Positions 3,327 to 64,000 of a stretch of 64,000 bases of DNA are shown one piece after another. The first letter of the stretch is position 1. Each line of letters begins with the position of its first letter. Both the position numbers and the translations under genes were made by a program. Source of the DNA: Acutalibacteraceae bacterium (lineage in GTDB: Bacteria > Bacillota > Clostridia > Oscillospirales > Acutalibacteraceae); assembly GCA_045603185.1 (NCBI GenBank), contig JAZULQ010000063.1:7924-71923 (forward strand), read 5' to 3'. The notes under the pieces were generated by a model. The model saw only the letters and a program-made list of their open reading frames with translations. It was not told the origin of the DNA and searched no databases.

Positions 3327-3405
3327 ACTTTGCAAAGCCCTTGCATATTATGTACAAGGACTCCTGATTTCAGGGGTACTTCATAATACGGAAGGGTCTT
3401 TTTTT

Positions 3406-33207: not shown

Positions 33208-33221
33208 ACAATCACCTTGAA

Positions 33222-33917
33222 TTAAAATGAAATTCTTTCTCCTGTGTGAGCGTTTACAATGCCTTTATGAACGCCGATATATGTGTTTGAAATATATTTG
33301 TCTAAATGAAGACTTCCGAAAAACCATCTGCTGAATTCACTGCATTTTGAGAGTTCGTCAAAATATGCGTTGAGAGTTGTAACGCGTACTGCATCGCCTT
33401 CGCCAAGCTTCAGGAAACCCTTGATAGTGGATGATGGTTCGTGTGTGATGATAACGTCAATTTTACAATCATGCTTCTCAAGGTTGCTTGCACCTTCAAG
33501 GAGCTCCTCTTTAGAAGGTATCTCATATTTAAGCCAAGGGTTATCCTCAAGCCTTGACTCGAGGTCAGGGCTTTCTCCGCCACCCATTGTAAAAATCTTT
33601 AAACCGTCTATAACAAAAACCTGACCTCTCATAAGGTGGAAAATGTTATCGGAAATCTGATGGACCTTTCCGCCGTTCCAGGTTGTGGTAGGGTAGGCGT
33701 TGAGATACTCAAAATTCTCATGAGTTCCGTCAATAAAACAAATATTGTATTTTCTCTTTGAAAGAGATTTTAAAAATTTCTGTTCAGCCTTTGACCTGTC
33801 CCAGATAAAACCAAAGTCACCGCACACGATTAGTGTGTCGCCGTCGTTGAGTTTTTTCAATACACTTTTTGAAAGTCTTTTAGGGTCGCCATGGGTGTCG
33901 CCGGTTACAAAAACCAT
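33222..33917 (-). CDS. Metallophosphoesterase (calcineurin-like)
   Basis: GDTHGD, GDFGFIWD, GTHENF and ITHEP motifs. It lies 14 nt upstream of the beta-helix gene, which has its own AAGGTGA SD. Confidence 0.75.
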   Translation of the reverse strand: MVFVTGDTHGDPKRLSKSVLKKLNDGDTLIVCGDFGFIWDRSKAEQKFLKSLSKRKYNICFIDGTHENFEYLNAYPTTTWNGGKVHQISDNIFHLMRGQVFVIDGLKIFTMGGGESPDLESRLEDNPWLKYEIPSKEELLEGASNLEKHDCKIDVIITHEPSSTIKGFLKLGEGDAVRVTTLNAYFDELSKCSEFSRWFFGSLHLDKYISNTYIGVHKGIVNAHTGERISF

Positions 33918-46355: not shown

Positions 46356-46388
46356 AAAAACGGAGTGGTTTTCCACTCCGACTTTTTT
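46354..46388. terminator. Bidirectional terminator between the ABC operon and the Cys-rich gene
   Basis: AAAAAAA-CGGAGTGG-TTTT-CCACTCCG-ACTTTTTT. Confidence 0.85.
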
Positions 46389-47223
46389 ATTTAGAACAAC
46401 CGCAATTTCCACCGGGATTAAAAACAGGTGAGCAGTCATTATCTCTCATATTAGGCGGGAAAAATTCATCAATAGGGAAGCTGATTCGTTTGAATGTGTC
46501 GCAGGGGTCTTCGGTGTCACAACAGCATTCTTTGGTGGGTACACAGAAATCGTATGCAGGTATAAGCATCTGGACATCGCGTTCAAGCTGGATAATGGTG
46601 AAAATACCCAAAGTAACCTTGACGGCTTTTTCACCGTAATTACCGAAATTACCATCAAAACAACGGCAGATGTTTCTGGGTACAGAGTCACAGCAATCGC
46701 CCAATGTGTTGCAGCAATCGCAGATTCTGCAAATCTGTGCATCAAGAATTATGGGATCTACGCACTGAACTTTAGCTTTGGGATTTGAGTTTGTGACGGG
46801 ATTCTGTTCATCGTTTCCGTCACAGACATAATTTGATGTAAATATTTTAACATTTCCGTCGCTACCGTAAAGCACGCACTTTTTACCGAATGTAACAAGA
46901 CCCTCGATAGTTGTTGGTTGAGCCGTAGGGCAGGTAAGCGCATCAAGAACAACTTTTACAAAGAACGTGAGGTCTACTGAGTAGCAACCACGGTTAAACG
47001 GGACTTTTTCAACTTCAACAATGCAGTTAAGTATTTGTGCTGAACGAGGACGAACGAGGGATGCAGATTCAAGGATATGTTGGTTGCAGTCTGTAAGGTA
47101 AACCCTTAAATCCGTCAAGCAGTCTTTGTCGGCACATGAATCGTAAACTCTGTTTGTGTCAACACAGATGGCTTCTTTGATGTGATGAAGGTCCGGTCCT
47201 GAGAATGGTTTTTTGTCAGCCAT
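46387..47223 (-). CDS. Cysteine-rich protein of unknown function (26 Cys in 278 aa), possible spore coat/exosporium component
   Basis: Strong GGAGG SD. Cys clusters include CRICDCCNTLGDCCDSVPRNICRC, ECCCDTEDPC and GGNCGCSK. There is no signal peptide or TM helix. I do not recognise the family. Confidence 0.55.
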   Translation of the reverse strand: MADKKPFSGPDLHHIKEAICVDTNRVYDSCADKDCLTDLRVYLTDCNQHILESASLVRPRSAQILNCIVEVEKVPFNRGCYSVDLTFFVKVVLDALTCPTAQPTTIEGLVTFGKKCVLYGSDGNVKIFTSNYVCDGNDEQNPVTNSNPKAKVQCVDPIILDAQICRICDCCNTLGDCCDSVPRNICRCFDGNFGNYGEKAVKVTLGIFTIIQLERDVQMLIPAYDFCVPTKECCCDTEDPCDTFKRISFPIDEFFPPNMRDNDCSPVFNPGGNCGCSK

Positions 47224-47335: not shown

Positions 47336-48226
47336 TTATTCTATTATATCACCTAATTCAAAGGGCGGAATATAGTCTTCGGAGGCGGAGTCGAGTTCTT
47401 GTATAAAACCGTCTTCAATGCCTGAGTCGTAGAGATATTCTTCTATTTCTCTGTACTCGTCTTCTGTCAAACGTCTGTGCAATGAATCAATAGTGCAGTT
47501 TTCTATTGGGGTGAATTGACTCATAAGACTGAAAAGAATCTGACCTTCGCTGAAATTATTTTTGACCCAGTCGATTACGCCTTTTGTGTTTTCAGACTGT
47601 CCCGGCAAAATTAAATGACGGATTATAACACCACTTACCATTATTCCGTTGTCGTCAATTACATAATCACCTACCTGACGGTACATTTCCTTTATAGCGT
47701 CAGTGGCGATTTCAAAATAATTTTCGGCAGAGGAATATCTTTTGGCAAGGCAGTCATCCGAATACTTGAAATCGGGGAGATAAATATTTATTTTACCCTC
47801 TAGTTTTTTTAATGAGTCCACGCTGTCATATCCACCGCAGTTGTAGACTACCGGAACAGGTAGCGGTTCGTCAAGAGAGTCACAAATAGCGTTGACAAAA
47901 TGACTTCCGGTTACAAGATTAATGTTGTGAGCACCTTGCGATATTAAGTCACGGTAAATTGATTTTAACTGCTCTACGGTAATTTCTTTGCCGAATTTAC
48001 CCCGACTGATTTTTTCATTCTGGCAAAATTTACATTGCAGATTACAACCCGAAAAAAATACTGTTCCGCTTCCGTTTGTGCCGCTGATAGGCGGTTCTTC
48101 CCACATGTGTAAGGCGGCGCGGGCGATTACCGGGTTTTCACCCATATGGCAAAAGCCCTTACCGCTATCGGTAAGAGCTTTTCTTTGTGCGTTACATTTT
48201 CTTGGACAATCGTTACATAAATACAT
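47336..48226 (-). CDS. Radical SAM protein, PflX-type (pyruvate formate-lyase activase-like, COG1313)
   Basis: From ATG 48226: MYLCNDCPRKCNAQR..., then HMWEEPPISG and the CNLQCKFC radical SAM cluster. The track start at 48397 would overlap the upstream SH3b gene by 167 nt. ATG 48226 lies 5 nt after that gene's stop. Confidence 0.8.
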   Translation of the reverse strand: MYLCNDCPRKCNAQRKALTDSGKGFCHMGENPVIARAALHMWEEPPISGTNGSGTVFFSGCNLQCKFCQNEKISRGKFGKEITVEQLKSIYRDLISQGAHNINLVTGSHFVNAICDSLDEPLPVPVVYNCGGYDSVDSLKKLEGKINIYLPDFKYSDDCLAKRYSSAENYFEIATDAIKEMYRQVGDYVIDDNGIMVSGVIIRHLILPGQSENTKGVIDWVKNNFSEGQILFSLMSQFTPIENCTIDSLHRRLTEDEYREIEEYLYDSGIEDGFIQELDSASEDYIPPFELGDIIE

Positions 48227-48230
48227 GGAA

Positions 48231-48905
48231 TTAAGCAGCCTTAAGGTATTTGAATGCGAGCCAGCCGCAGTTGCCGTTGTATTCAACATAACCCCATTCG
48301 CCACAAACAGCGAGGATTTCAACTTCCGAACCTTTCGGTACTTCGCCGCAACGTTCTGCGCCGTCTTCAGCTTTGATTCTGATACCAAGCGGGTCATCCT
48401 GAGTTGCGATGGTGTATTTACCGACAGCGTATTTGGGAGCTTTGTCTGACAATGAAACTAAATCAAGGTACTTCATTGCAACCCAGCCGCCGATACCTTC
48501 GTAGTTTACATAGCCCCAGTCGCCGTAAACAGCAAGGACTTCTATCTCTGTGCCTTTGGGAATTTCGCCGACTCTCTGACCATCCTGGTCTGCCTGGAGT
48601 CTGATTCCTAAGGGGTCGTCCTTAGTTGCAACTTTGTATTTTCCTGCCTTTGTAGCAACAGTAGTTGTGTTGTTTTTTGTTGTAGAAGGAGCAGTTGTAT
48701 TGTTGCCGGTGGGGTCAACATTTTCAACGATTTCGTTGCTGGGAGCATCAACATCATTTTTGTCCTTGACTTTATCAACAACAACCGCAATGCAGGTGAT
48801 TAAAATAGCGATAACAATTAAAATTGCGGAAATAAACAATATTAAATTATTCTTGTTGCTTAATTTTTCTTTCAAAGTTTCAATTAAGTTTTGAATAAAC
48901 TCCAT
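48231..48905 (-). CDS. Membrane-anchored protein with two tandem bacterial SH3 (SH3b) domains
   Basis: N-terminal TM helix (LILFISAILIVIAILITCIAVVV), a T/N-rich linker, then two modules of about 62 aa ending GDWGYVNYEGIGGWVAMKYL and GEWGYVEYNGNCGWLAFKYL. Confidence 0.75.
   Translation of the reverse strand: MEFIQNLIETLKEKLSNKNNLILFISAILIVIAILITCIAVVVDKVKDKNDVDAPSNEIVENVDPTGNNTTAPSTTKNNTTTVATKAGKYKVATKDDPLGIRLQADQDGQRVGEIPKGTEIEVLAVYGDWGYVNYEGIGGWVAMKYLDLVSLSDKAPKYAVGKYTIATQDDPLGIRIKAEDGAERCGEVPKGSEVEILAVCGEWGYVEYNGNCGWLAFKYLKAA
48240..48644 (-). repeat. Internal tandem duplication encoding the two SH3b modules
   Basis: Residues 88-149 and 162-222 align along their full length: GKYKVATKDDPLGIRLQADQDGQRVGEIPKGTEIEVLAVYGDWGYV versus GKYTIATQDDPLGIRIKAEDGAERCGEVPKGSEVEILAVCGEWGYV. 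Confidence 0.8.
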
Positions 48906-54382: not shown

Positions 54383-55246
54383 ATGTCCGTTCTTTCCGTT
54401 AAAAATTTAATATACGGATACTCAAAAGGTACTCCTTTTGAAAAAGGTGCTTTGAATGATGTCAGCGCAGACTTTGAAAAAGGTGAGATTGTTGCCGTTA
54501 TCGGTCATACCGGTTCGGGTAAAAGTACACTTTTGCAGCATCTTAACGGGCTTTTGAAACCTGATTCCGGTGAAGTCCTGTTTGAAGGTAAAAGTATTCA
54601 CGAATCTAAGTCATCGTTACGCGCTTGTCGATTTAATGTAGGGCTTTGCTTCCAGTATCCTGAACAGCAGTTATTTGAGTCTACTGTTTATAAGGATATA
54701 GCTTTCGGACCTTCAAATATGGGGCTTGACGATGATGAGATTAAAAGACGCGTTTATGAGTCTATTAATTACGTGGGTCTCAGCGAGGATTATCTTGAAA
54801 AATCGCCCTTTGACCTTTCGGGCGGTGAAAAGAGAAGGGTAGCTATTGCCGGTGTTATATCAATGCAGCCCAAGGTTCTGATTCTCGATGAACCTACCGC
54901 CGGTCTTGACCCGTTAGGTAAAGCCAATTTATTGAAATTAATAAAAGATTATAATGATAGGACAGGAAATACAGTTGTTTTCGTGTCACATAATATGGAT
55001 GATGTCGCTTCAGTGGCTCAGAGAGTAATTGTAATGAGCGAGGGCAAAATCGTCCTTAACGGTAGTGTCGATGAAGTGTATTCTCAGGGTGAAAAGTTGG
55101 CTGGATTAGGTCTTGATATTCCTGAAATAACTGCGCTTTTTATTGAGCTGAAGAATGCCGGTTATGATTTAGGTCATACCGAGTACACTGTTGAAGGCGC
55201 TAAGAACGCTATTATCAAATCTCTCTCGAAAGGGGGAGCGTTATGA
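54383..55246 (+). CDS. ecfA2: Energy-coupling factor transporter ATPase EcfA2
   Basis: Walker A GHTGSGKST, signature LSGGEKRR and Walker B ILDEPT. ATG 54383 follows the ecfA1 stop. Confidence 0.9.
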   Translation: MSVLSVKNLIYGYSKGTPFEKGALNDVSADFEKGEIVAVIGHTGSGKSTLLQHLNGLLKPDSGEVLFEGKSIHESKSSLRACRFNVGLCFQYPEQQLFESTVYKDIAFGPSNMGLDDDEIKRRVYESINYVGLSEDYLEKSPFDLSGGEKRRVAIAGVISMQPKVLILDEPTAGLDPLGKANLLKLIKDYNDRTGNTVVFVSHNMDDVASVAQRVIVMSEGKIVLNGSVDEVYSQGEKLAGLGLDIPEITALFIELKNAGYDLGHTEYTVEGAKNAIIKSLSKGGAL

Positions 55247-56058
55247 TAAAAGATATTACAATCGGTCAGTATTTCCCGGGAAAATCCTTTATTCATAAAC
55301 TGGATGCCAGAACTAAACTTATTCTGACTGTTGCTTTCCTTGTTATGATTTTCATCTGTAAGAACTTCTGGTCCTTAGGGCTTGTTTCAGGCTTTGGAAT
55401 TGTAGTTTATCTCACTTCAAGAATTTCACCTAAGGTTATTTTAAAAAGCTTTAAGCCACTGATACCCATAGTTTTGCTGACTACGGTTTTACAGCTTTAT
55501 TATATTAAAGAAGGTACAGTTCTTTTTGAATGGAAATTTATCAGTATAACAGATAAAGGTGTTTTTACGGCTATTTTTATCTGTGTAAGAATTTTAACAC
55601 TTCTTCTTATAAGCTCTTTGCTTACTTATACCACTGCGCCTACTGATTTGACCGACGGTATCGAGAAGCTTCTTTCACCTTTGAAGATTTTTAAAATCGA
55701 AGTCCATACTTTTGCAACGATGATGACTATTGCGCTCAGATTCATTCCCACGCTTATTGATGAGATTGACAGAATTATGTCAGCGCAAAAGGCAAGAGGC
55801 GCAGACCTTGAAACAGGTAACATTGTAAAACGAATAAAGGCATTATTTCCCATTTTTGTTCCTTTGTTTGTTTCGGCATTTAAGCGAGCCATAGAGCTTG
55901 CTGATGCTATGTCTTGCCGTTGTTATACCGGTGGAGACGGAAGAACTCGACTTCGTCAGATGAAGTTTACCTGGCGAGATGTTGTTGCGGGTGTCATCAC
56001 TGTATTGGTATGCGTTTTGCTGATACTCTTGAATATTAATTTTGATCATTTAATTTAA
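55243..56058 (+). CDS. ecfT: Energy-coupling factor transporter transmembrane protein EcfT
   Basis: Polytopic membrane protein with the CbiQ-type ARG motifs (AQKARGADL). Confidence 0.88.
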   Translation: MIKDITIGQYFPGKSFIHKLDARTKLILTVAFLVMIFICKNFWSLGLVSGFGIVVYLTSRISPKVILKSFKPLIPIVLLTTVLQLYYIKEGTVLFEWKFISITDKGVFTAIFICVRILTLLLISSLLTYTTAPTDLTDGIEKLLSPLKIFKIEVHTFATMMTIALRFIPTLIDEIDRIMSAQKARGADLETGNIVKRIKALFPIFVPLFVSAFKRAIELADAMSCRCYTGGDGRTRLRQMKFTWRDVVAGVITVLVCVLLILLNINFDHLI

Positions 56059-56062
56059 AGCT

Positions 56063-56821
56063 ATGAGAAATTTATTGTTTAAAGCAGCCTTCGACGGTTC
56101 TGCTTTTCATGGATGGCAGCAACAAGAGAATGCTGTTACAGTCCAGGGTGAGTTGAAAAACGCCTGGCAGAGATTAACCGGTGAGGTTCCTAATATAATC
56201 GGTTGCAGCAGAACCGATGCAGGTGTTCACGCAAAGGAATATTACTTTAACGTAAGAACCGATAGCACAATTCCGTGTGAGAGTTTTCCTGTTGCTCTTA
56301 CATCGGCAAAGCTCCCCGGTGAAATTTCCGTTATATCTTGCAAAGAAGTTGACTATGATTTTAATGCAAGGTTTGATTGTGAGAAAAAAGAATATATTTA
56401 CGTGTTCGAAAACACAAAGGTTGCATCACCCTTTAATTATAAAAGAGCATTGAACTATAAATATGATATGGATGTTCAGTTGATGGATAAAGCGGCTAAG
56501 CATTTTATTGGCGAGCACGATTTTTCTGCCTTCTGTGCTTCCGGTGCCGAGGTTCTTTCTAAAGTAAGGACTATTTATAGTGCCGATGTCCGTCGTGACG
56601 GTGATTTTGTAGTGTTCAGCGTATGCGGAAATGGTTTTTTGTATAATATGGTTCGTATTATGGCAGGAACACTTCTTTATGTTAATAACGGGAAAATTTC
56701 TGAAAATGAAATCCCGGACATAATATTGAATAAGGATAGAACAGCCGCGGGTATTACTGCACCGCCCGATGGTTTGTATCTTAATAAAGTTTACTTTTCA
56801 GGAGAAAAAAATGAAGGTTAA
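56063..56821 (+). CDS. truA: tRNA pseudouridine(38-40) synthase
   Basis: GWQQQ and catalytic GCSRTDAGVHA, plus HDFSAF and MVRIMAGTL. Confidence 0.93.
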   Translation: MRNLLFKAAFDGSAFHGWQQQENAVTVQGELKNAWQRLTGEVPNIIGCSRTDAGVHAKEYYFNVRTDSTIPCESFPVALTSAKLPGEISVISCKEVDYDFNARFDCEKKEYIYVFENTKVASPFNYKRALNYKYDMDVQLMDKAAKHFIGEHDFSAFCASGAEVLSKVRTIYSADVRRDGDFVVFSVCGNGFLYNMVRIMAGTLLYVNNGKISENEIPDIILNKDRTAAGITAPPDGLYLNKVYFSGEKNEG

Positions 56822-58022
56822 GTTTACCGAACTAAAAAGTGGATATAAAGGTGAACACAGAGTTTCGCGTTTTTCTAAGAAGACAAAAAGCAAAGCGATT
56901 ATTGTCGGTGTGCTTGTTGCGGTTTTTGTATTTGTGTACATATTGTCTTCTGTCGGTGTTATACCGTTAAGTGCGTTATGGGTAAAGGCGAAGGTGTCCC
57001 TATCAGGTGACAGCGAGCGTTTTCCTATTGCTGTCAATACGGAATCCACACTTAATACCGATATTATCGGCGATAGCATTATAATATTGACCTCGGAAAA
57101 TGTAGCTGTGTATTCACCAGGCGGTAAATTGGTTTTTTCTCAGCCGCATGTTTATACTAAACCCGGAATTTCCGTGAATGGCGATAAAGCCATTATTTTT
57201 GACCGTAGCGGAAAAGGTTTTATGCTTGTAACTGATAAAAAACTGGTGTATGAAGGAGAAGCGGATAATATAATTATCTCAGCTGAGTACGGTAATGACG
57301 GCAGCTATGCTTTAGGAACAAAAGCAAAATCTGCTACCAGTGCACTGAGTGTTTATAATAAAAGCAACAAAATGGTTTTTCAGTGGAATTGTGCTTATGA
57401 AAACATAGTTTCTATCGCGCTTTCCGATAACGGTAAGTTTATAGGCGTAGCTACATTGGGTGCCGAGAACGGAACACTCTTTACTACCGTTCAGTATTTT
57501 GGTGTTGATTATAAAGAAGCGTTAAATACCCAGAAGATACAAGGCGTTGCACCGTTTGACCTTGAATTTACAGCTTATAATACTTTGACGATGATATCTC
57601 ATGTTGGTGTTTATAATATAAACCGTAACGACGAAGCGTACACCGAAACACTCAAATATTATTCATCGGAGTTTAATTCGTGCGATATCTCCGGAAAGGG
57701 TAATTATGTTGTTTCATTAGCTAAATACGGCAGTGAAAATGTTTTTGAGATTTTAGTATATAAATCTAAGGGGCAACTTAAAACAACAATTTCAGCTAAT
57801 TATGAAATTAAAAGTGTTCGTATGAGCGATAAATATATATTCGCTTTAGCTGAAGATTGTATAACAGTTTATGATTTGAACGGTAAAATCGTATCGGAGA
57901 TTAATTATAAAGGTGAGGCATTTTCGGTTCTTCCTACTGACGATTTTGCTTTTATAACATCACTTGATAAAATTACAAGATGTTTCTCTTACGGTGATTC
58001 TTCTGTTGAATTAAGTTCCTGA
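56811..58022 (+). CDS. Membrane-anchored beta-rich protein of unknown function (DUF5711-like)
   Basis: ATG 56811 has a GGAG SD and overlaps the truA end. One TM helix (AIIVGVLVAVFVFVYILSSVGV) is followed by about 330 aa of repetitive beta-strand-like sequence. Confidence 0.45.
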   Translation: MKVKFTELKSGYKGEHRVSRFSKKTKSKAIIVGVLVAVFVFVYILSSVGVIPLSALWVKAKVSLSGDSERFPIAVNTESTLNTDIIGDSIIILTSENVAVYSPGGKLVFSQPHVYTKPGISVNGDKAIIFDRSGKGFMLVTDKKLVYEGEADNIIISAEYGNDGSYALGTKAKSATSALSVYNKSNKMVFQWNCAYENIVSIALSDNGKFIGVATLGAENGTLFTTVQYFGVDYKEALNTQKIQGVAPFDLEFTAYNTLTMISHVGVYNINRNDEAYTETLKYYSSEFNSCDISGKGNYVVSLAKYGSENVFEILVYKSKGQLKTTISANYEIKSVRMSDKYIFALAEDCITVYDLNGKIVSEINYKGEAFSVLPTDDFAFITSLDKITRCFSYGDSSVELSS

Positions 58023-58034
58023 TTCGGAGGCTTT

Positions 58035-58745
58035 ATGGAGAAATATATTTTTGATGTGATTTTGGTAGCGATAGTTGCATTGATAATTGCACTTTCTGCC
58101 AAAAAAGGCTTTACAGCTTCGTTGCTCAGCACCGTTTCTGTTGTATTATCGGGATTTTTATCTTATAAATTTACTGAACCGGTGTCTGAGTTCATATACA
58201 GTTCATTTTTACGTGGTAAAATAGAAGAGAAGTTCACGGAAGTTCTCAGTAGCTTGTCTACGGATGTTTCGTTTAACGGCAAAATTAACGCAATGTTAGG
58301 TGCCTTGCCGAAAGGATATGTCGATGTAGCTCAGGCTTTTGGTCTTAATGTAAATTCAGCTATTGAAAACAGTATGCAGTTGGATGTTACATCTAACGAA
58401 CAACTGATTCAATTATTAATTGACAACATTGCCGGTTATGTAGTAACAGCGATAGTTCAACTGGTTGTCTTTTTAGCTCTGTTTATTTTATTAGCGATTG
58501 TTTTTAAGTTTGTGTCTAAGTTACTTAACAAAATAGTTGAGAAATTACCGGTTGTCGGCAAGGCTAACTCAATTCTTGGCGGAGTTCTTGGATTTGTAAA
58601 AGCAGTTGTGTTTGTGTTTGTGGCTTGTACAGTCATATGTGTGCTCGTTAATTCAACCGATATAGGTTTATTAAAGGATTTTGTATCGTCTTCGTATATA
58701 TATCGGTTTGTTTTAGATTATAATCCGTTAGTTAATTTTATTTAA
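58035..58745 (+). CDS. CvpA family membrane protein
   Basis: Four predicted TM helices. The N-terminus DVILVAIVALIIALSAKKGF is typical of CvpA-like proteins. Confidence 0.5.
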   Translation: MEKYIFDVILVAIVALIIALSAKKGFTASLLSTVSVVLSGFLSYKFTEPVSEFIYSSFLRGKIEEKFTEVLSSLSTDVSFNGKINAMLGALPKGYVDVAQAFGLNVNSAIENSMQLDVTSNEQLIQLLIDNIAGYVVTAIVQLVVFLALFILLAIVFKFVSKLLNKIVEKLPVVGKANSILGGVLGFVKAVVFVFVACTVICVLVNSTDIGLLKDFVSSSYIYRFVLDYNPLVNFI

Positions 58746-58760
58746 TGTGAGGTTTAAAGT

Positions 58761-59372
58761 ATGAAAGGTTTATTTAAAGGTTGTTTAACAATACCAAATT
58801 TGTTGAGCGTCATCAGAATTCTTGTTATTCCGGTTTTTGCTTATTTCTTTGTAACCGGTAAACCGATTTGGGCGATTGTTATGCTCGCTTTATCCGGTAT
58901 TTCCGATTTTCTTGATGGTAAAATTGCACGTAAATTTAACCAGGTCAGCGATCTCGGCAAGGTACTTGACCCGGTTGCAGATAAATTAACTCAGATTACA
59001 CTTGCAGTTCTTCTCTTTATTTCATTCAATAAAGCCGAGGATCCGGCGCTTAAAGCATTCAGCTGGGTTTTCCTTGTATTTATAGTTAAAGAGCTTGTAA
59101 TGGTTGTTTTCGGCGGTATTATGCTTCTTTTGAACCTTCGTCCAAGCGCTGCCGAGATTTTCGGAAAAGTTGCAACATTTGCTTTCTATGCAATTATGCT
59201 TCTCATCGTAGCATTCGGACCTGAAGTAGGATTGTTAAAAGATGTATTTGAGCTTCCTTCAGTTGCAATGATGATACTCGTTGCAGTTTCGGCAATACTA
59301 ACTCTTGTAGCCTTTGTTAGCTATTTACCCGATACATTCCGTCAGTTCAAAGAAAAGTTTTCAAAAAAATAA
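58761..59372 (+). CDS. CDP-alcohol phosphatidyltransferase (PgsA-like)
   Basis: DG(x2)AR(x8)G(x3)D(x3)D motif: DFLDGKIARKFNQVSDLGKVLDPVADK. Confidence 0.8.
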   Translation: MKGLFKGCLTIPNLLSVIRILVIPVFAYFFVTGKPIWAIVMLALSGISDFLDGKIARKFNQVSDLGKVLDPVADKLTQITLAVLLFISFNKAEDPALKAFSWVFLVFIVKELVMVVFGGIMLLLNLRPSAAEIFGKVATFAFYAIMLLIVAFGPEVGLLKDVFELPSVAMMILVAVSAILTLVAFVSYLPDTFRQFKEKFSKK

Positions 59373-59405
59373 AGATTATAATATAGTTTATCCCGGGAGA
59401 ATTAA

Positions 59406-61721
59406 ATGAATAATAAAATGTTATGCAGTAAATGCAAAAGACGCCCTGCAGTTATATTTGTATCACGTGTTGAGGGTGAAAAAACATCACAAGAGGGCTT
59501 TTGTCTTAAATGTGCCTCTGAACTTAATATTGGTCCCATTAAGCAGATGATGCAGAATATGGGCATCACAGAAGAAGATATTGATGCTGTCAGCGAACAG
59601 TTTGGCGATATAATGGAAAATATGGACGATTTCCAGCTTGGCGGCGCAGGTACAATGCCCTTTATGCAAAATTTGTTCGGCGGTGGTAATGACGCCGCAT
59701 CTTTACCGGAAGGTAATGAGGCAGAGAATACTGAAGCTGACGAAGCTGATGAGCCCGACGAAAAAGAAAAAAAGAGCTCTAAAAAGAAAAAACGTAAAAC
59801 GAAACGTAAATTCCTCGGCTCATATTGCACCGATTTAACTGCCAAAGCCCGCGAAGGAAAAATAGACAGAATAATCGGCAGAGAAACCGAGATTTACCGT
59901 GTTACTCAGATACTTTGCAGAAGAACAAAAAATAACCCTTGCCTTATTGGTGAGCCCGGTGTCGGTAAGACCGCTATTGCTGAAGGTCTTGCTTTGAAAA
60001 TTGCTTCGGGTGAAGTTCCTGCAAGAATCGCAGATAAAGAAATACACCTTTTGGATTTGACTTCACTTGTTGCAGGAACTCAGTTCCGTGGTCAGTTTGA
60101 GAGCCGTATCAAAGGACTCGTTGATGAGGTTAAAGAGGAAGGCAATATTATCCTTTTCATTGACGAGGTTCACAATCTCGTGGGTACAGGTGATGCCGAG
60201 GGTTCTATGAATGCTGCCAACATTCTTAAACCTGCTCTTTCACGTGGACAGATTCAGGTTATTGGTGCTACAACTTTTAACGAATACCGTAAGCACATCG
60301 AAAAGGATGCAGCATTAGAAAGACGTTTCCAGCCGGTTAAGGTTGAAGAACCGTCTATCGCCGATTGCTATAAGATGCTTTTGGGAATTAAAGAGTATTA
60401 TGAAGATTTCCATAAAGTTAAGATTTCGGATGCTTTGGTTTATAGAGCTGTATTACTTTCCGAACGCTATATTAATGATAGATTTTTGCCCGATAAGGCG
60501 ATAGATCTTCTCGATGAAGCATGCACTTGCGCAAACCTCAGAAACGTTGCCATCAGTGACTACCAGAAGCTTTCTGCAAAGATTGCAGACCTTATTGAAA
60601 GGGAAGAGGAGCTTATTAATGTTACCGATGAAAACGGCCCTGACTATGAGGCAATTTCAATGCTTAAGGCAGAGAGAATGGCAATAGAGAAAGAAGCCGC
60701 AAACGTTAAGGTTAAAGCTGATGATAATGATGTTACAGAGGAAGACGTTGCTAAGGTAATCAATCTTTGGACAGGTATTCCGACATCTAAGATTATCGAG
60801 AATGATATGCGCAAGCTCTCCAATCTTGAGCAAAAACTGAAATCTCGTATTATAGGTCAGGATGAGGCTGTTGAGGTGCTCGCCGCCGCAATCAGACGAA
60901 GCAGAGTCCAGATTTCTGCAGTCAGAAAACCCGCATCGTTTATTTTTGTAGGTCCTACCGGTGTCGGTAAAACCGAGCTTGTAAAACAGCTTGCAAACGA
61001 GCTGTTTGAAACACCTGAAACCCTTATAAGACTTGATATGTCAGAGTTTATGGAGAAGCACAGCGTTTCAAGACTTATCGGTTCTCCTCCCGGATACGTA
61101 GGATATGATGAAGCGGGACAGCTGACCGAGAAGGTAAGAAGAAAACCTTATTCGGTTGTTTTGTTTGACGAAATAGAAAAAGCACATCCCGATGTAATGA
61201 ATATACTTCTTCAGATTCTTGATGAAGGCAAAACTAACGATGCTCAAGGACGAACAGTTAGTTTTGAAAACACTGTTATCATTATGACTTCTAATGCAGG
61301 TAGCCATATTACAGAAAATGCACTCGGATTCAATCGCGATAAGAATACTGCATCAAAGGACAAGGCGATGAAAGCTCTCAAAGAATTCCTCAGACCCGAA
61401 TTTTTAGGCAGAGTTGATGAAATTGTTGTCTTCAATACCTTGGGTAAAGAAGAGTTAGTTAAGATAGCGGCTATTCTTATTGAAGAGTTCCGTCAACCTC
61501 TTAAGGATAAAGGTATTGAGCTTGTTGTCGGTGACGGCGTTTGCGAAATAATTGCAGATAAGTCAGAGGATGGCGGCAGAGGCGCGCGTGATATCAGAAG
61601 AACCATCAGAAAGACTATTGAAGATAAAGTTGCTAATATTCTTATTGATAATGCAGGTGCACCTGTTAGTGAAATTACGATTACCGCGGTTGATAATGAT
61701 ATTGAAGTAACTTATAAATAA
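59406..61721 (+). CDS. ClpC/ClpA-family AAA+ unfoldase with an atypical N-terminal C4 zinc ribbon
   Basis: Two AAA+ modules (GEPGVGKTA with DEVH; GPTGVGKTE with FDEIEKAH), a coiled-coil middle region and an LGF ClpP-docking loop (ENALGFNRD). The N-terminus CSKCKRRPA...CLKCA replaces the usual Clp_N repeats. Confidence 0.85.
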   Translation: MNNKMLCSKCKRRPAVIFVSRVEGEKTSQEGFCLKCASELNIGPIKQMMQNMGITEEDIDAVSEQFGDIMENMDDFQLGGAGTMPFMQNLFGGGNDAASLPEGNEAENTEADEADEPDEKEKKSSKKKKRKTKRKFLGSYCTDLTAKAREGKIDRIIGRETEIYRVTQILCRRTKNNPCLIGEPGVGKTAIAEGLALKIASGEVPARIADKEIHLLDLTSLVAGTQFRGQFESRIKGLVDEVKEEGNIILFIDEVHNLVGTGDAEGSMNAANILKPALSRGQIQVIGATTFNEYRKHIEKDAALERRFQPVKVEEPSIADCYKMLLGIKEYYEDFHKVKISDALVYRAVLLSERYINDRFLPDKAIDLLDEACTCANLRNVAISDYQKLSAKIADLIEREEELINVTDENGPDYEAISMLKAERMAIEKEAANVKVKADDNDVTEEDVAKVINLWTGIPTSKIIENDMRKLSNLEQKLKSRIIGQDEAVEVLAAAIRRSRVQISAVRKPASFIFVGPTGVGKTELVKQLANELFETPETLIRLDMSEFMEKHSVSRLIGSPPGYVGYDEAGQLTEKVRRKPYSVVLFDEIEKAHPDVMNILLQILDEGKTNDAQGRTVSFENTVIIMTSNAGSHITENALGFNRDKNTASKDKAMKALKEFLRPEFLGRVDEIVVFNTLGKEELVKIAAILIEEFRQPLKDKGIELVVGDGVCEIIADKSEDGGRGARDIRRTIRKTIEDKVANILIDNAGAPVSEITITAVDNDIEVTYK

Positions 61722-61730
61722 TTAAAATTA

Positions 61731-61760
61731 CCGACAGAGCAAGCTGTTCTGTCGGTTTTT
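61731..61760 (+). terminator. Rho-independent terminator after the clpC-like gene
   Basis: CCGACAGA...TCTGTCGG stem followed by TTTTT. Confidence 0.75.
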
Positions 61761-61772
61761 AAAAAGGAAAGT

Positions 61773-64000
61773 ATGAAAAAGAGTGTAGTGGGAATCCTTG
61801 CTCATGTTGACGCAGGTAAAACAACATTAGCCGAAGCTTTGCTTTACAAAGCCGGTAAAATAAGGAAAATAGGTCGTGTTGATAACGGTGATACGACCTT
61901 AGATACCCATACCCTCGAAAAAGAACGCGGGATTACAATCTTTGCGGGGCAGTCCGTGTTTAATGTAAACGATTTAGATATTACATTACTTGATACTCCC
62001 GGTCACGTGGATTTTTCGGCTGAAACCGAGCGAGTGTTAAAGGTGCTGGATTACGCCATACTTGTTATAAGCGGTACTGATGGTGTTCAGGCTCATACCA
62101 GAACTCTATGGAAACTTTTAAAAAGCTACAATATACCTACTTTCGTCTTTGTGACGAAGATGGATTTCGCTAGATTGGAAAAAAGCGACATTCTTGCTGA
62201 TTTAAATGATTTATGCGGCGGTTGTTGTATCGATTTTTCTTCAGCTGATACTGAGGAAATGCTTGAAAGCATTGCGGTGTGTGATGAATCAGTGCTGGAG
62301 AAGTATTTTGAAACCGGCAGTGTTACAAAGGAAGATATAGCACTACTTCTCAGAAAAAGAGCGATTATACCATGTTATTTTGGTTCGGGGCTTAAATCTG
62401 AGGGGATAGACGAGTTTTTACAGGGGCTTTATGATTATATATCCGTTAAAAATTATCCGGATGATTTTTCAGCAAAGGTATTTAAAATTACTCATGACTC
62501 AAAAGGTGAGCGTTTAACCCATATTAAGGTTACCGGCGGTAGCATTAAAGTAAAAGAAGCTATTTCTTATAACGGAAAAACAGAAAAAGTCAACGGCTTA
62601 AGAGTTTACTCGGGTGATAAATTTACTTCTGTTAATGAAATGACTGCCGGCGGTGTTTGCGCCGTTACAGGTTTTTCAGGGCTTAATTGCGGTGATGGTT
62701 TGGGTAAAGAGGAAGCTTTTTATGAATCTTATCTTGAACCGGTTATGAGTTACAGGATAGTATTACCCTCAAATTGTGATGCCCAGACTTTTTTGCCTAA
62801 ATTACGTCTTCTCGAGGCAGAAGACCCACAGCTCCACGTGTCGTGGAACTCTTTTCTTCAGGAAATACACGTTTCTCTTATGGGTGATATACAGACCGAG
62901 ATATTAAAAGGCATTATTTCCGAACGGTTTGATGTGGATGTTGAAATTGATTCGGGAAGAGTATTATATAAGGAAACTATTAAAAACACTGTTGAAGGTG
63001 TAGGTCATTACGAGCCACTCAGACATTATGCTGAGGTTCACTTGATTCTTGAACCGTTGCCGCGAGGTAGCGGAATTGTTTTGAAGTCTGAATGTAGCGA
63101 GGATTCTTTGGATAGAAACTGGCAGAACCTTATTTTGTTGCATTTGGCTGAAAAAGAGCATGTGGGCGTTTTAACCGGCTCACCTATAACTGATGTTAAA
63201 ATTACTCTTGCGGCAGGTAGAGCTCATCTTAAACACACTGAGGGCGGGGATTTCAGACAGTCTACATATCGTGCTGTAAGGCAAGGTTTAATGCAGGCGA
63301 AATCAGTGCTTTTAGAGCCGTACTATAACTTCCGCTTAGAAGTACCTACTGAGCTAATAGGTCGCGCAATTATTGATATAAAGATGAAAAACGGCACATT
63401 TGAAGCTCCCGAGGATTCTAACGGCGTTACAGTAATTACCGGCAGAGCACCGGTTGTCTGTTTTAACGGTTACGCGTCAGAGGTTGCGTCTTATACCGGT
63501 GGAAGAGGTCGCCTGTTTTGTGATGTTTGCGGTTATGATGTGTGTCATAATCCGGATGAAGTTACAGAAAATGCAAAATATTCTCCTGAAAGTGATTTGG
63601 AGAATACTCCCGATTCGGTATTTTGTGCACATGGTGCCGGATTTAATGTGAAATGGGATAAGGTTTTTGAATATATGCACATTGACTCCTGCCTTGTCCT
63701 GGAAAAAACACCTTATGAAGTGACTCTTAATAAGCGTAATTTCCATATTGATGACAAAGAACTTGAAGCTATTATGGAACGCGAGTTCGGAAAGGATAAA
63801 CATCCTTATTATAGGTATAGTCACAATGTCACCCCTAAAAAACCTGTTCAGGCAGAATATAACCCTGTTCAACGCAAAAAGTATATTATAGTTGACGGTT
63901 ACAATGTTATTTTTGCCTGGGATAACTTAAAAAAACTGGCTGAAGATAACCTTGAAAGTGCACGCAGTAAATTGATGGATATACTGTGTAATTACAGCGC
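61773..64000 (+). CDS. TetM/EF-G-like translational GTPase fused to a C-terminal YacP/Rae1-type NYN nuclease domain (3' partial; runs off the window)
   Basis: My own translation from ATG 61773 (GGAAAG upstream) is open through 63998, which is 742 codons. GTPase motifs are AHVDAGKT, RGITI, DTPGH and TKMD. EF-G domain IV/V-like segments are HYEPLRHYAEVHL and GDFRQSTYRAVRQG. The final visible residues KYIIVDGYNVIFAWDNLKKLAEDNLESARSKLMDILCNYS resemble the YacP/Rae1 N-terminus. Confidence 0.75.
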   Translation, partial: MKKSVVGILAHVDAGKTTLAEALLYKAGKIRKIGRVDNGDTTLDTHTLEKERGITIFAGQSVFNVNDLDITLLDTPGHVDFSAETERVLKVLDYAILVISGTDGVQAHTRTLWKLLKSYNIPTFVFVTKMDFARLEKSDILADLNDLCGGCCIDFSSADTEEMLESIAVCDESVLEKYFETGSVTKEDIALLLRKRAIIPCYFGSGLKSEGIDEFLQGLYDYISVKNYPDDFSAKVFKITHDSKGERLTHIKVTGGSIKVKEAISYNGKTEKVNGLRVYSGDKFTSVNEMTAGGVCAVTGFSGLNCGDGLGKEEAFYESYLEPVMSYRIVLPSNCDAQTFLPKLRLLEAEDPQLHVSWNSFLQEIHVSLMGDIQTEILKGIISERFDVDVEIDSGRVLYKETIKNTVEGVGHYEPLRHYAEVHLILEPLPRGSGIVLKSECSEDSLDRNWQNLILLHLAEKEHVGVLTGSPITDVKITLAAGRAHLKHTEGGDFRQSTYRAVRQGLMQAKSVLLEPYYNFRLEVPTELIGRAIIDIKMKNGTFEAPEDSNGVTVITGRAPVVCFNGYASEVASYTGGRGRLFCDVCGYDVCHNPDEVTENAKYSPESDLENTPDSVFCAHGAGFNVKWDKVFEYMHIDSCLVLEKTPYEVTLNKRNFHIDDKELEAIMEREFGKDKHPYYRYSHNVTPKKPVQAEYNPVQRKKYIIVDGYNVIFAWDNLKKLAEDNLESARSKLMDILCNYS

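What the first reader, a model, noticed from the sequence alone, without database searches (positions are those of the whole stretch)
61773..64000. Untracked ORF fusing a TetM/EF-G-like ribosomal GTPase to a Rae1/YacP-type NYN ribonuclease
The supplied track has no entry here because the ORF has no stop inside the window. Translating from ATG 61773 gives 742 uninterrupted codons. The first ~640 aa are a five-domain translational GTPase of the TetM/TetO/EF-G type. The GTPase motifs are G1 AHVDAGKT, G2 RGITI, G3 DTPGH and G4 TKMD. A Cys/His-rich stretch of about 70 aa follows (CDVCGYDVCH ... FCAHG), which could bind metal, and then a short spacer. From about residue 708 the sequence reads KYIIVDGYNVIFAWDNLKKLAEDNLESARSKLMDILCNYS. 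That matches the start of the B. subtilis YacP/Rae1 NYN domain as I remember it (LLVDGYNMIGAW..L......ARD.L). Rae1 is known to be an endoribonuclease that cuts mRNA in the ribosomal A site in a translation-dependent way. TetM/EF-G paralogs dock at the same side of the ribosome through the GTPase-associated centre. A covalent fusion therefore suggests a GTPase-delivered, ribosome-targeted nuclease. Its role could be mRNA surveillance, stalled-ribosome rescue or a conditional toxin-like activity. As far as I know this architecture has no experimental characterisation.
Basis: partly seen in the sequence, partly recalled or inferred. Interest (0 to 1): 0.7.

Follow-up and report, generated by a model that had tools for sequence, protein, structure and literature searches.

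The report
Ribosomal GTPase fused to Rae1 nuclease
The window ends inside a real, widespread gut-Clostridia gene that joins an EF-G/TetM-like ribosomal GTPase to a complete Rae1-type RNA-cutting enzyme; the fusion was already noted in print in 2015 and 2017, but I found no report of it being tested, and it may show how this nuclease is brought to stalled ribosomes.

Summary
ATG 61773 opens 742 stop-free codons that run off the window. A 100%-identical public protein and a 99.6%-identical contig show the full gene is 861 aa.

Its parts are a five-domain EF-G/Tet-fold translational GTPase (1-593), a conserved but unstructured linker of about 110 aa, and a complete Rae1/YacP NYN domain (705-848).

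The GTPase motifs and all four NYN aspartates, including the two mutated in the Rae1 catalytic mutant, are invariant or nearly so in 128 relatives. The fusion occurs in at least 574 species-representative genomes of Oscillospirales and Lachnospirales. It is always one ORF, lies in varied chromosomal contexts, and its similarity tracks taxonomy.

It is not a bona fide tetracycline protection protein: it scores below the NCBIfam cutoff and lacks the TetM displacing loop.

The architecture is already published (Atkinson 2015; Matelska 2017), but I found no experiments on it.

Best reading (inferred): a GTPase-docked, tethered mRNA endonuclease for stalled or collided ribosomes.

Whether it replaces standalone Rae1 could not be tested.

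The parts
61773..64000 (+). 5' 2228 nt (742 of 861 codons) of the trGTPase-linker-NYN fusion gene. The ORF continues about 358 nt beyond the window.
   Evidence: open frame; 100%-identical 861-aa protein P0001; 99.6%-identical contig L001 carries the stop.
61788..62441 (+). G domain (residues 6-223). Motifs: G1 AHVDAGKTT, G2 RGITI (T55), G3 DTPGH (catalytic H78), G4 TKMD.
   Evidence: Pfam GTP_EFTU E=5e-49. D13/G15/K16/T17/T55/D74/P76/G77/K129/D131 are 128/128 and H78 is 127/128.
62466..62948 (+). Domains II (residues 232-310) and III (322-392) of the EF-G fold.
   Evidence: Pfam EF-G_D2 and EFG_III. AF2 model matches EF-G structures, Foldseek E~1e-51.
62955..63302 (+). Domain IV (residues 395-510), the most conserved region of the protein. 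It carries a family-specific tip, G-R/K-A-H-x-K-H-T-E-G-G-D (482-493), and the loop VEGVGHYEPLRHYAEVH.
   Evidence: Pfam EFG_IV. Mean column conservation is 0.76 against 0.63 for the G domain. H485 aligns with T. thermophilus EF-G H573; the TetM YSPVS loop is not kept.
63306..63551 (+). Domain V (residues 512-593), ending in the GY.PCHN strand.
   Evidence: Pfam EFG_C. The profile of this segment matches only the domain V ends of EF-G and TetO in the PDB.
63552..63884 (+). Family-specific linker (residues 594-704). It has a conserved motif Y603...D608.EN..DSVFC.HGAG..V.W..V..YMH636 and a conserved helix near 660-673 (ELxxIxxRxxG). A variable basic/acidic tether of 57-128 aa spans the stretch from residue 640 to the NYN domain.
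   Evidence: Y603, S615, F617 and G621 are 128/128; C618 125, W628 124, H636 124. pLDDT is 32-72 in two AF2 runs. No PDB or NCBIfam match.
63885..64000 (+). First 38 residues of the Rae1/YacP NYN nuclease domain (705-742 of 705-848), including catalytic D708 and the GYN motif. The rest lies beyond the window.
   Evidence: Pfam NYN_YacP E=9e-11 in the window and E=7e-45 in the full-length protein. Match to B. subtilis Rae1 5MQ8/5MQ9: E=1.6e-21, TM 0.79, rmsd 2.2 A.
61730..61760 (+). Intrinsic-terminator-shaped hairpin (12-bp stem ACCGACAGAGCA/TGTTCTGTCGGT plus T5). It sits between the clpC-like gene and the fusion's SD-like AAGGAA (61764-61769).
   Evidence: RNA fold dG -19.8 kcal/mol, z=-4.1. 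The stem core ACCGACAGA/TCTGTCGGT is conserved in L001-L006 with variable loops.
59406..61721 (+). Upstream neighbour: a ClpA/B/C-type double-AAA+ ATPase (771 aa). It is syntenic only in close relatives and is not part of the fusion's conserved unit.

Best explanation
The gene encodes an 861-aa housekeeping protein of gut Clostridia in which three parts are joined. The first is a ribosome-dependent translational GTPase of the EF-G/Tet fold (residues 1-593). The second is a conserved but intrinsically unstructured tether of about 110 aa. The third is a complete, catalytically competent Rae1-type NYN endoribonuclease (residues 705-861).

Proposed mechanism:
1. The GTP form docks at the ribosomal factor-binding site. 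Its G domain lies on the sarcin-ricin loop, and its highly conserved domain IV tip probes the decoding centre. This selects a particular stalled state.
2. The tethered nuclease is thereby held at high local concentration and cuts mRNA next to that ribosome. The likely target is the short mRNA stretch between a stalled ribosome and a collided follower, where free Rae1 is now thought to act.
3. GTP hydrolysis, using H78, releases the factor.
4. The truncated mRNA then feeds tmRNA-type rescue.

What is shown: the architecture, the integrity and conservation of both active sites, the distribution, vertical inheritance and the non-mobile context.

What is inferred: ribosome binding, mRNA as the substrate, the stalled or collided state as the trigger, and the order of events.
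For: Architecture and completeness.

EF-G fold of residues 1-593: AF2 plus Foldseek E~1e-51. The closest sequences are TetM (E=2e-76) and EF-G (E=3e-70).

NYN half equals Rae1:
- E=1.6e-21 to 5MQ8/5MQ9 over nearly the whole Rae1 chain (residues 4-148).
- Foldseek top hit 5MQ9_A, TM 0.79, rmsd 2.2 A.
- D708 and D783 correspond to the D7 and D81 of the Rae1 D7N D81N catalytic mutant (PMC10351889).
- D708, D754, D783, D805 and the GYN motif are 128/128 or close.

GTPase residues, including catalytic H78, are invariant or 127/128. Domain IV is the most conserved region, with a family-specific tip.

The fusion is obligatory: all 80 best genome loci have a single ORF and none is split. There are 365 clusters at 50% identity with E<=1e-30 and at least 574 species genomes.

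The unit is self-contained: no neighbouring gene is conserved across the family.

Vertical descent and core context: the nearest neighbour has the same taxon label in 46 of 48 cases, and the window is ordinary chromosome.

Rae1 biology: translation-dependent mRNA cleavage at stalled or collided ribosomes, feeding trans-translation (PMC12407103; PMC13622287).
Against: - I found no experiment on any member of the family.
- Free Rae1 is now placed at the tail (mRNA exit) end of the stalled ribosome, not the A site. That end lies far from the factor-binding site of the same ribosome. The model therefore needs either docking on the trailing collided ribosome or a fully extended tether.
- The linker has no confident predicted structure, so the geometry is unknown.
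- In this protein's subclade the position matching B. subtilis E107 is Ile (I808). It is Glu in 81 of 128 members. A possible assisting acidic residue is therefore missing here.
- I could not test whether these genomes also keep a standalone Rae1.
- The substrate could be rRNA or tRNA rather than mRNA.
Confidence: 0.55

Rival explanations
1. The nuclease targets stable RNA rather than mRNA. The GTPase docks on ribosomes or subunits, and the NYN domain processes or cleaves rRNA or tRNA. The purpose could be a maturation check, inactivation or turnover of defective or idle ribosomes, or tRNA cleavage in the A or P site.
For: - NYN_YacP was originally predicted to act in rRNA/tRNA maturation, from its mrnC-rlmB-yacP neighbourhood (Matelska 2017; Atkinson 2015).
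- Domain IV, which reaches the rRNA and tRNA of the decoding centre, is the most conserved part.
- A covalent tether to a ribosome-bound GTPase places the nuclease next to rRNA as much as next to mRNA.
Against: - The only characterised homologue, Rae1, cleaves mRNA in a translation-dependent way.
- The NYN half covers nearly the whole Rae1 chain (residues 4-148), with 30-34% identity and the same active site.
- No rRNA-processing genes recur next to the fusion.
Confidence: 0.22
2. It is a tetracycline ribosomal protection protein, as some NCBI records name it, with an accessory RNase domain that contributes to resistance.
For: - The best NCBIfam family is tet_protect (444.5 bits) and the best PDB sequence match is TetM.
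- Some records are named 'TetM/TetW/TetO/TetS family tetracycline resistance ribosomal protection protein'.
- Atkinson 2015 raised this possibility.
Against: - The score is far below the curated cutoff: 444.5 against 775. The TetM/W/O/S model gives 297.8 against 1100.
- The TetM loop that displaces tetracycline (YSPVS, P509) is replaced by the invariant AH.KHTEGG.
- Domain IV alone is marginally closer to EF-G.
- No TetM-type C-terminal extension was detected.
- The gene sits in the core chromosome, tracks taxonomy (46 of 48) and occurs in at least 574 species. Mobile tet genes do not behave this way.
Confidence: 0.06
3. It is a conditional toxin or anti-phage defence effector that shuts down translation by cutting ribosome-bound RNA.
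For: - PIN/NYN nucleases are common toxins.
- Ribosome-dependent mRNA interferases such as RelE exist (established knowledge).
Against: - No PADLOC match.
- No conserved antitoxin-like or other partner gene.
- No mobile-element context in the window.
- The gene is vertically inherited and near-universal across two orders.
Confidence: 0.04
4. It is an assembly or frameshift artefact that joins two separate genes.
For: None beyond the ORF being cut by the window end.
Against: - The same single ORF is found in 80 of 80 independent genome loci, and in hundreds of protein clusters from different assemblers and sources.
- The linker itself carries invariant residues.
Confidence: 0.01

Closest known systems
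TetM-NYN_YacP fusion proteins of Clostridia (noted by Atkinson 2015, BMC Genomics, PMC4342817; Matelska et al. 2017, NAR, PMC5499597)
   Same: This is that family. It has the same domain order (Tet-like trGTPase, then YacP-like NYN) and the same taxon (Clostridia).
   Different: The papers recorded about ten species, or 'some Clostridia', and left the function open. Here the family is shown to be much larger: at least 574 species genomes and 365 clusters at 50% identity. It is vertically inherited, lacks the Tet signature loop, and carries a conserved family-specific linker.
Rae1 (YacP) of Bacillus subtilis, the ribosome-associated endoribonuclease (PDB 5MQ8/5MQ9)
   Same: - The C-terminal 157 aa align with nearly the whole Rae1 chain (residues 4-148) (E=1.6e-21, TM 0.79, rmsd 2.2 A).
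- The GYN motif and D7/D53/D81/D104 equivalents are invariant.
- The C-terminal helices are present.
   Different: - Rae1 is a free single-domain protein of about 170 aa, encoded in the mrnC-rlmB-yacP cluster. Here it is covalently tethered to a 593-aa GTPase and lies elsewhere in the genome.
- The E107 position is Ile in this subclade.
- How free Rae1 finds ribosomes is still under study.
TetM/TetO ribosomal protection proteins (PDB 3J9Y, 4V6V)
   Same: Five-domain EF-G-like GTPase without a large G' insertion. Best sequence match overall (E=2e-76).
   Different: - Below all curated RPP cutoffs.
- The tetracycline-displacing domain IV loop III is not conserved.
- No matching C-terminal extension.
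- Chromosomal and vertically inherited rather than mobile.
EF-G (for example T. thermophilus 1DAR/4V9H)
   Same: Same fold (Foldseek E~1e-51). The G motifs are kept. The domain IV tip His (H485) aligns with EF-G H573.
   Different: Far below the EF-G equivalog cutoff (280.7 against 659.4). The domain IV loops are family-specific. It carries an extra linker and a nuclease.
Collision or no-go decay nucleases and GTPase-delivered rescue factors: SmrB (E. coli), Cue2/NONU-1 (eukaryotes), Dom34-Hbs1, RelE
   Same: Functional analogy only: an endonuclease acting on mRNA of stalled or collided ribosomes, or a trGTPase escorting an A-site factor.
   Different: The folds are unrelated (SMR, eRF1-like, RelE). 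In none of these is the nuclease covalently fused to the GTPase.

Membership tests
Translational GTPase superfamily (EF-G/Tet branch) | G1-G4 nucleotide-binding motifs and the catalytic His after DxxG | tested here: met
   AHVDAGKTT, RGITI, DTPGH, TKMD. Invariant or 127/128 in 128 relatives. Pfam GTP_EFTU E=5e-49.
Translational GTPase superfamily (EF-G/Tet branch) | Five-domain EF-G architecture (G, II, III, IV, V) | tested here: met
   All five Pfam domains score above their gathering scores. The AF2 model matches EF-G structures at E~1e-51.
Translational GTPase superfamily (EF-G/Tet branch) | Ribosome-stimulated GTP hydrolysis | not testable with these tools
   Needs biochemistry.
Tetracycline ribosomal protection proteins (TetM/O/W/S/Q) | Score at or above the NCBIfam tet_protect curated cutoff | tested here: not met
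   444.5 bits against a cutoff of 775. tet_protect_M_W gives 297.8 against 1100.
Tetracycline ribosomal protection proteins (TetM/O/W/S/Q) | Domain IV loop III (TetM Y506-Y507-S508-P509-V510-S511; the 'YSPVS' loop is 507-511) that displaces tetracycline | tested here: not met
   It aligns with the invariant A-H-L-K-H-T-E motif.
Tetracycline ribosomal protection proteins (TetM/O/W/S/Q) | Short C-terminal extension after domain V | tested here: inconclusive
   A profile of residues 560-645 matches TetO/TetM only through the end of domain V. The linker motif finds no counterpart. A by-eye resemblance (DKV..YM) was not supported.
Tetracycline ribosomal protection proteins (TetM/O/W/S/Q) | Confers tetracycline resistance; typically carried on mobile elements | tested here: not met
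   For context only: core chromosome, no mobile genes nearby, similarity tracks taxonomy. The phenotype is not testable here.
EF-G | Score at or above the EF-G equivalog cutoff (TIGR00484) | tested here: not met
   280.7 bits against 659.4.
Rae1 / NYN_YacP (PF05991) | Pfam NYN_YacP match above the gathering score, with the GYN motif after the first Asp | tested here: met
   153.4 bits against 24.6, covering residues 705-848. D708-G-Y-N is 126-128 of 128. Motif definition from Matelska 2017.
Rae1 / NYN_YacP (PF05991) | Four active-site aspartates, including the D7 and D81 of the experimental catalytic mutant | tested here: met
   D708, D754, D783 and D805 align with D7, D53, D81 and D104 of 5MQ8 and are 128/128. 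D7N D81N mutant from PMC10351889.
Rae1 / NYN_YacP (PF05991) | Rae1 three-dimensional fold | tested here: met
   Foldseek top hits are 5MQ9 and 5MQ8, TM 0.71-0.79, rmsd 2.2 A for 5MQ9_A. NYN pLDDT is above 90.
Rae1 / NYN_YacP (PF05991) | Single-domain protein encoded in the mrnC-rlmB-yacP(-sigH) neighbourhood | tested here: not met
   It is fused to a 593-aa GTPase. Its neighbours are a clpC-like gene and cysK, and no canonical neighbours appear in any of 80 loci.
Rae1 / NYN_YacP (PF05991) | Translation-dependent endonucleolytic cleavage of mRNA at stalled ribosomes | not testable with these tools
   Needs in vitro translation or cleavage assays.
TetM-NYN_YacP fusion family (Atkinson 2015; Matelska 2017) | Tet-like trGTPase followed by a YacP-like NYN domain in one polypeptide, in Clostridia | tested here: met
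   The closest genomes are Acutalibacteraceae or 'Clostridia bacterium' MAGs.
Known anti-phage defence systems (PADLOC) | Match to any PADLOC model | tested here: not met
   0 families.

The most novel reading that the evidence does not exclude
In Oscillospirales and Lachnospirales this fusion is the organism's Rae1 and has replaced the free enzyme. It would then be a natural 'Rosetta stone' showing that Rae1-type nucleases work from the GTPase-associated centre of a stalled or trailing collided ribosome. The EF-G-like domain IV would read the ribosomal state, and GTP hydrolysis would gate or time mRNA cleavage. That would make it a bacterial, covalently linked counterpart of GTPase-escorted no-go decay.
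Probability: 0.3. Interest if true: 0.7.

Novelty: already known. Interest (0 to 1): 0.42.

Why it matters
How Rae1 is recruited to stalled or collided ribosomes is an open question that the Rae1 laboratories say they are pursuing structurally (PMC12407103). A widespread natural fusion of complete Rae1 to an EF-G-like GTPase bears on it in three ways:
- It predicts a docking site, the factor-binding site.
- It offers a handle for trapping the complex, using GDPNP or an H78 mutant together with D708N/D783N.
- It gives a test of whether nuclease action is coupled to GTP hydrolysis.

The family is abundant in human and animal gut Clostridia; one 90% cluster alone has 815 member sequences. Ribosome-rescue surveys that use an HMM without a length filter count it as plain Rae1.

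There is also a practical annotation point. Some records call these proteins 'tetracycline resistance ribosomal protection protein'. The evidence here does not support that name, and it can inflate resistome counts.

Tried and rejected
1. Homology of the conserved linker motif (DSVFC.HGAG..V.W..V..YMH) to the TetM/TetO C-terminal extension. It looked plausible by eye, but a 40-sequence profile matched PDB trGTPases only through the end of domain V. Dropped.

2. A folded zinc-ribbon or rubredoxin-like domain in the linker. There are only chance-level rubredoxin hits (E~2). Both AF2 runs give low confidence and isolated helices, and the linker has no Foldseek match. A CCHH metal site (C591, C618, H620, H636) remains possible but unproven.

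3. Conserved operon partners. All-against-all clustering of about 1050 genes from about 80 loci found none beyond close relatives. The clpC-like neighbour is lineage-specific.

4. A second, standalone NYN gene. There is none in the window or in the 1.3 Mb of fetched loci. That is far too little sequence to decide co-occurrence, and whole genomes cannot be queried with these tools.

5. The look-up of encoding contigs for the exact protein P0001 found nothing on record. The window was extended through the 99%-identical P0002 contig instead.

6. Rfam, tRNA and PADLOC scans were all empty.

7. The original Rae1 paper (EMBO J 2017) and the Rae1 distribution paper (Condon 2018, PMC6152456) are not held. 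I could not check whether the latter mentions the fusion.
Full report
**1. The observation**

Translating 61773-64000 on the + strand gives 742 codons without a stop. The ORF is missing from the mechanical ORF list only because it runs off the window. An SD-like AAGGAA lies just upstream of the ATG.

Pfam places these domains in the fragment:
- GTP_EFTU, residues 6-223
- EF-G domain II, 232-310
- EF-G domain III, 322-392
- EF-G domain IV, 395-510
- EF-G domain V, 512-593
- The first 39 positions of NYN_YacP, 705-742, E=9e-11

The gene can be completed from outside the window:
- A 100%-identical 861-aa protein from an NCBI assembly exists (P0001).
- A Logan contig (L001) is 99.6% identical to window 54802-64000. 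It carries the ORF on to a stop 358 nt past the window end.
- In the full protein NYN_YacP covers 705-848 at E=7e-45.

**2. What the parts are**

*GTPase body (residues 1-593).* It has the EF-G fold. The full-length AlphaFold model has mean pLDDT 75.5, with the domains mostly at 70-93, and it matches EF-G structures at E~1e-51. By sequence the nearest solved proteins are TetM (E=2e-76), TetO, and then EF-G (E=3e-70).

It is not a bona fide ribosomal protection protein:
- tet_protect scores 444.5 against a curated cutoff of 775, and every Tet or EF-G model is below its cutoff.
- The TetM domain IV loop that displaces tetracycline (Y506-Y507-S508-P509-V510-S511) is replaced by an invariant A-H-x-K-H-T-E-G-G motif.
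- Domain IV on its own is marginally closer to EF-G than to TetO/TetM. H485 aligns with T. thermophilus EF-G H573.

*NYN half.* The C-terminal 157 residues align with nearly the whole chain (residues 4-148) of B. subtilis Rae1/YacP (5MQ8/5MQ9, E=1.6e-21). A second AlphaFold run on linker plus NYN gives the NYN domain pLDDT above 90. Its best structural matches are the Rae1 crystal structures (TM 0.79, rmsd 2.2 A). D708, D754, D783 and D805 align with Rae1 D7, D53, D81 and D104. D7 and D81 are the residues mutated in the published catalytic mutant (PMC10351889).

*Linker (residues 594-704).* It is family-specific:
- It carries invariant or near-invariant residues: Y603, D608, S615, F617, C618, G621, W628 and H636, plus a conserved helix near 660-673.
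- Both predictions give it low confidence.
- It has no match in the PDB by profile or by fold and none in NCBIfam.
- The stretch from residue 640 to the NYN domain varies from 57 to 128 residues and is rich in E, R, K, A and P.

I read it as a tether with interaction motifs that fold on a partner.

- CDVCGYDVCH is the last strand of domain V, and its CxxC is not conserved.
- C591, C618, H620 and H636 are 92-98% conserved and could form one metal site.

**3. The family**

- The 120 best hits in the 5.8-billion-protein search are all fusions of 844-883 aa with the same Pfam set.
- A full HMMER scan of 1.84 billion representatives with linker plus NYN finds 365 clusters at 50% identity with E<=1e-30. 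The complete ones are about 820-960 aa and match from about residue 600 onward.
- The best 80 are Acutalibacteraceae, Oscillospiraceae, Ruminococcaceae and Lachnospiraceae. They include Intestinimonas, Flavonifractor, Oscillibacter, Faecalibacterium, Blautia and Dorea.
- In all 80 loci, GTPase, linker and NYN are in one ORF. The only shorter ones are cut by contig ends.

In a 128-sequence alignment (40-84% identity to this protein):
- The G motifs are invariant, and H78 is 127/128.
- The four NYN aspartates and the GYN motif are 126-128 of 128.
- Domain IV is the most conserved region of all, 0.76 mean column conservation against 0.63 for the G domain and 0.66 for NYN.

Both enzymatic halves, and the part that would reach the decoding centre, are therefore under strong purifying selection.

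**4. Context**

- The window is ordinary core chromosome: aminoacyl-tRNA synthetases, priA, rsmB, a PASTA kinase, valS, folC, glmM and an ECF transporter.
- The upstream run ecfT-truA-DUF5711-cvpA-pgsA-clpC-like is kept only in relatives at 79% identity or more.
- Across the family no neighbouring gene recurs.
- Similarity tracks taxonomy: the nearest neighbour shares the taxon label in 46 of 48 cases.
- There is no PADLOC hit.

This is the pattern of a vertically inherited housekeeping gene, not of a mobile resistance or defence gene.

**5. Literature**

The architecture is already in print:
- Matelska et al. 2017 describe TetM-NYN_YacP fusions in some Clostridia and leave the role open (PMC5499597).

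I found no experimental work on them.

Knowledge of Rae1 has moved on:
- A September 2026 preprint shows that Rae1 generates tmRNA substrates on collided ribosomes (PMC13622287).
- Neither paper mentions the fusion.
- The preprint's survey used hmmsearch at E<=1e-10 with no length filter for Rae1, so fusions would be counted as Rae1.

Public names for the family are inconsistent: 'translation factor GTPase family protein', 'putative translation elongation factor G', 'NYN domain-containing protein', and 'TetM/TetW/TetO/TetS family tetracycline resistance ribosomal protection protein'.

**6. Mechanism (inference)**

Intact G motifs and H78 imply a GTPase that the sarcin-ricin loop activates, as in all trGTPases (established knowledge). 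The extreme conservation of the domain IV tip implies a specific contact in the decoding centre, which would be how a ribosomal state is recognised. The NYN domain is a complete Rae1.

The simplest model has three steps:
1. The GTPase docks on a stalled ribosome.
2. The tether holds the nuclease next to it, and the nuclease cuts mRNA.
3. GTP hydrolysis releases the factor.

This must be reconciled with the revised Rae1 cut site. That site lies at the 5' edge of the stalled ribosome, which in a disome faces the mRNA entrance of the trailing ribosome. I therefore propose that the GTPase may dock on the trailing collided ribosome. A tether of at least 57 flexible residues could span the distance. 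None of this is shown.

Points against the model:
- The unknown geometry.
- The E-to-I change at the Rae1 E107 position in this subclade (I808; Glu in 81 of 128 members).
- The possibility that the substrate is rRNA or tRNA.

**7. Verdict**

The finding is real and correctly read at the level of architecture. It belongs to a family that is already described but, as far as I could find, uncharacterised, and it is annotated in public records. It is not a tetracycline resistance protein by the tests available.

Its value is as a lead on how Rae1 is recruited. The key untested point is whether carrier genomes lack free Rae1, which these tools could not address.

Noticed in passing
window 61722-61772 (hairpin 61730-61760); L002 9955-9990; L005, L006: Only 51 nt separate the clpC-like stop from the fusion's ATG. 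They hold a 12-bp hairpin plus T5 shaped like an intrinsic terminator (dG -19.8, z=-4.1), ending a few nt before the SD. The stem core (ACCGACAGA/TCTGTCGGT) is conserved in relatives down to 79% identity, while the loop varies. There is no room for a promoter after it. Expression must therefore come from read-through or from a promoter inside the clpC-like 3' end, which would make the hairpin a leader element.
   Followed up: partly
L008 ~170-232, L021 ~3330-3389, L028 ~8160-8218 (upstream of the fusion start): In some distant family members the leader contains an extended -10-like TGCTATAAT. It then forms a strong hairpin (down to -31 kcal/mol) in which a CCCC(T)TTC stretch pairs with the GAAGGGGG/GGAGG Shine-Dalgarno. 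This could be translational control of the fusion gene.
   Followed up: no
L001 9562-10491 (window-equivalent ~64363-65292, beyond the window): cysK (cysteine synthase A, 444.9 bits against a cutoff of 350.95) starts 4 nt after the fusion's stop codon, so it is probably co-transcribed. This is not conserved in the 85% relative, where glycosyltransferases follow on the opposite strand.
   Followed up: partly
residue I808 of the full protein (beyond the window); family alignment: The position aligned with B. subtilis Rae1 E107 (TSDYTEQ) is Glu in 81 of 128 family members, but Ile or Val in this protein's subclade (TSDNLIQ). It may be a subclade-specific change in an auxiliary active-site or substrate-binding residue.
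   Followed up: partly
public records of the family (P0008, P0101, P0077, P0271, P0272): The same protein family is variously named as a tetracycline resistance ribosomal protection protein, an NYN domain-containing protein, a translation factor GTPase family protein, or a putative EF-G. NCBIfam has no model that hits the linker plus NYN part. The 'tetracycline resistance' name is not supported and could create false resistome calls.
   Followed up: yes
window 56769-58022 (+): A 417-aa DUF5711 protein with no NCBIfam match sits between truA and cvpA. It is syntenic in L001-L006. Its function is unknown.
   Followed up: no
L055 (CAVEPP010000094.1, labelled Alloprevotella sp.): A 6.7-kb contig in a Bacteroidota-labelled bin carries a typical 883-aa fusion gene. 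All other carriers are Clostridia, so this is most likely binning contamination rather than transfer.
   Followed up: no
window 31003-33917 (-): Almost all large genes in the window are on the + strand. One exception is a 734-aa right-handed beta-helix / GH141-like protein (31003-33207) with a 231-aa ORF after it (33222-33917) on the - strand, which looks like an inserted carbohydrate-active unit. ORFs at 46387-47223 and 47336-48397 are also on the - strand.
   Followed up: no
one search hits P0218 (1156 aa), P0219 (1069 aa); L050, L053 (1023-1037 aa ORFs): A few family members are 150-300 aa longer than the norm. The extra length may be extra N-terminal sequence, additional domains, or start-codon miscalls. 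I did not examine them.
   Followed up: no
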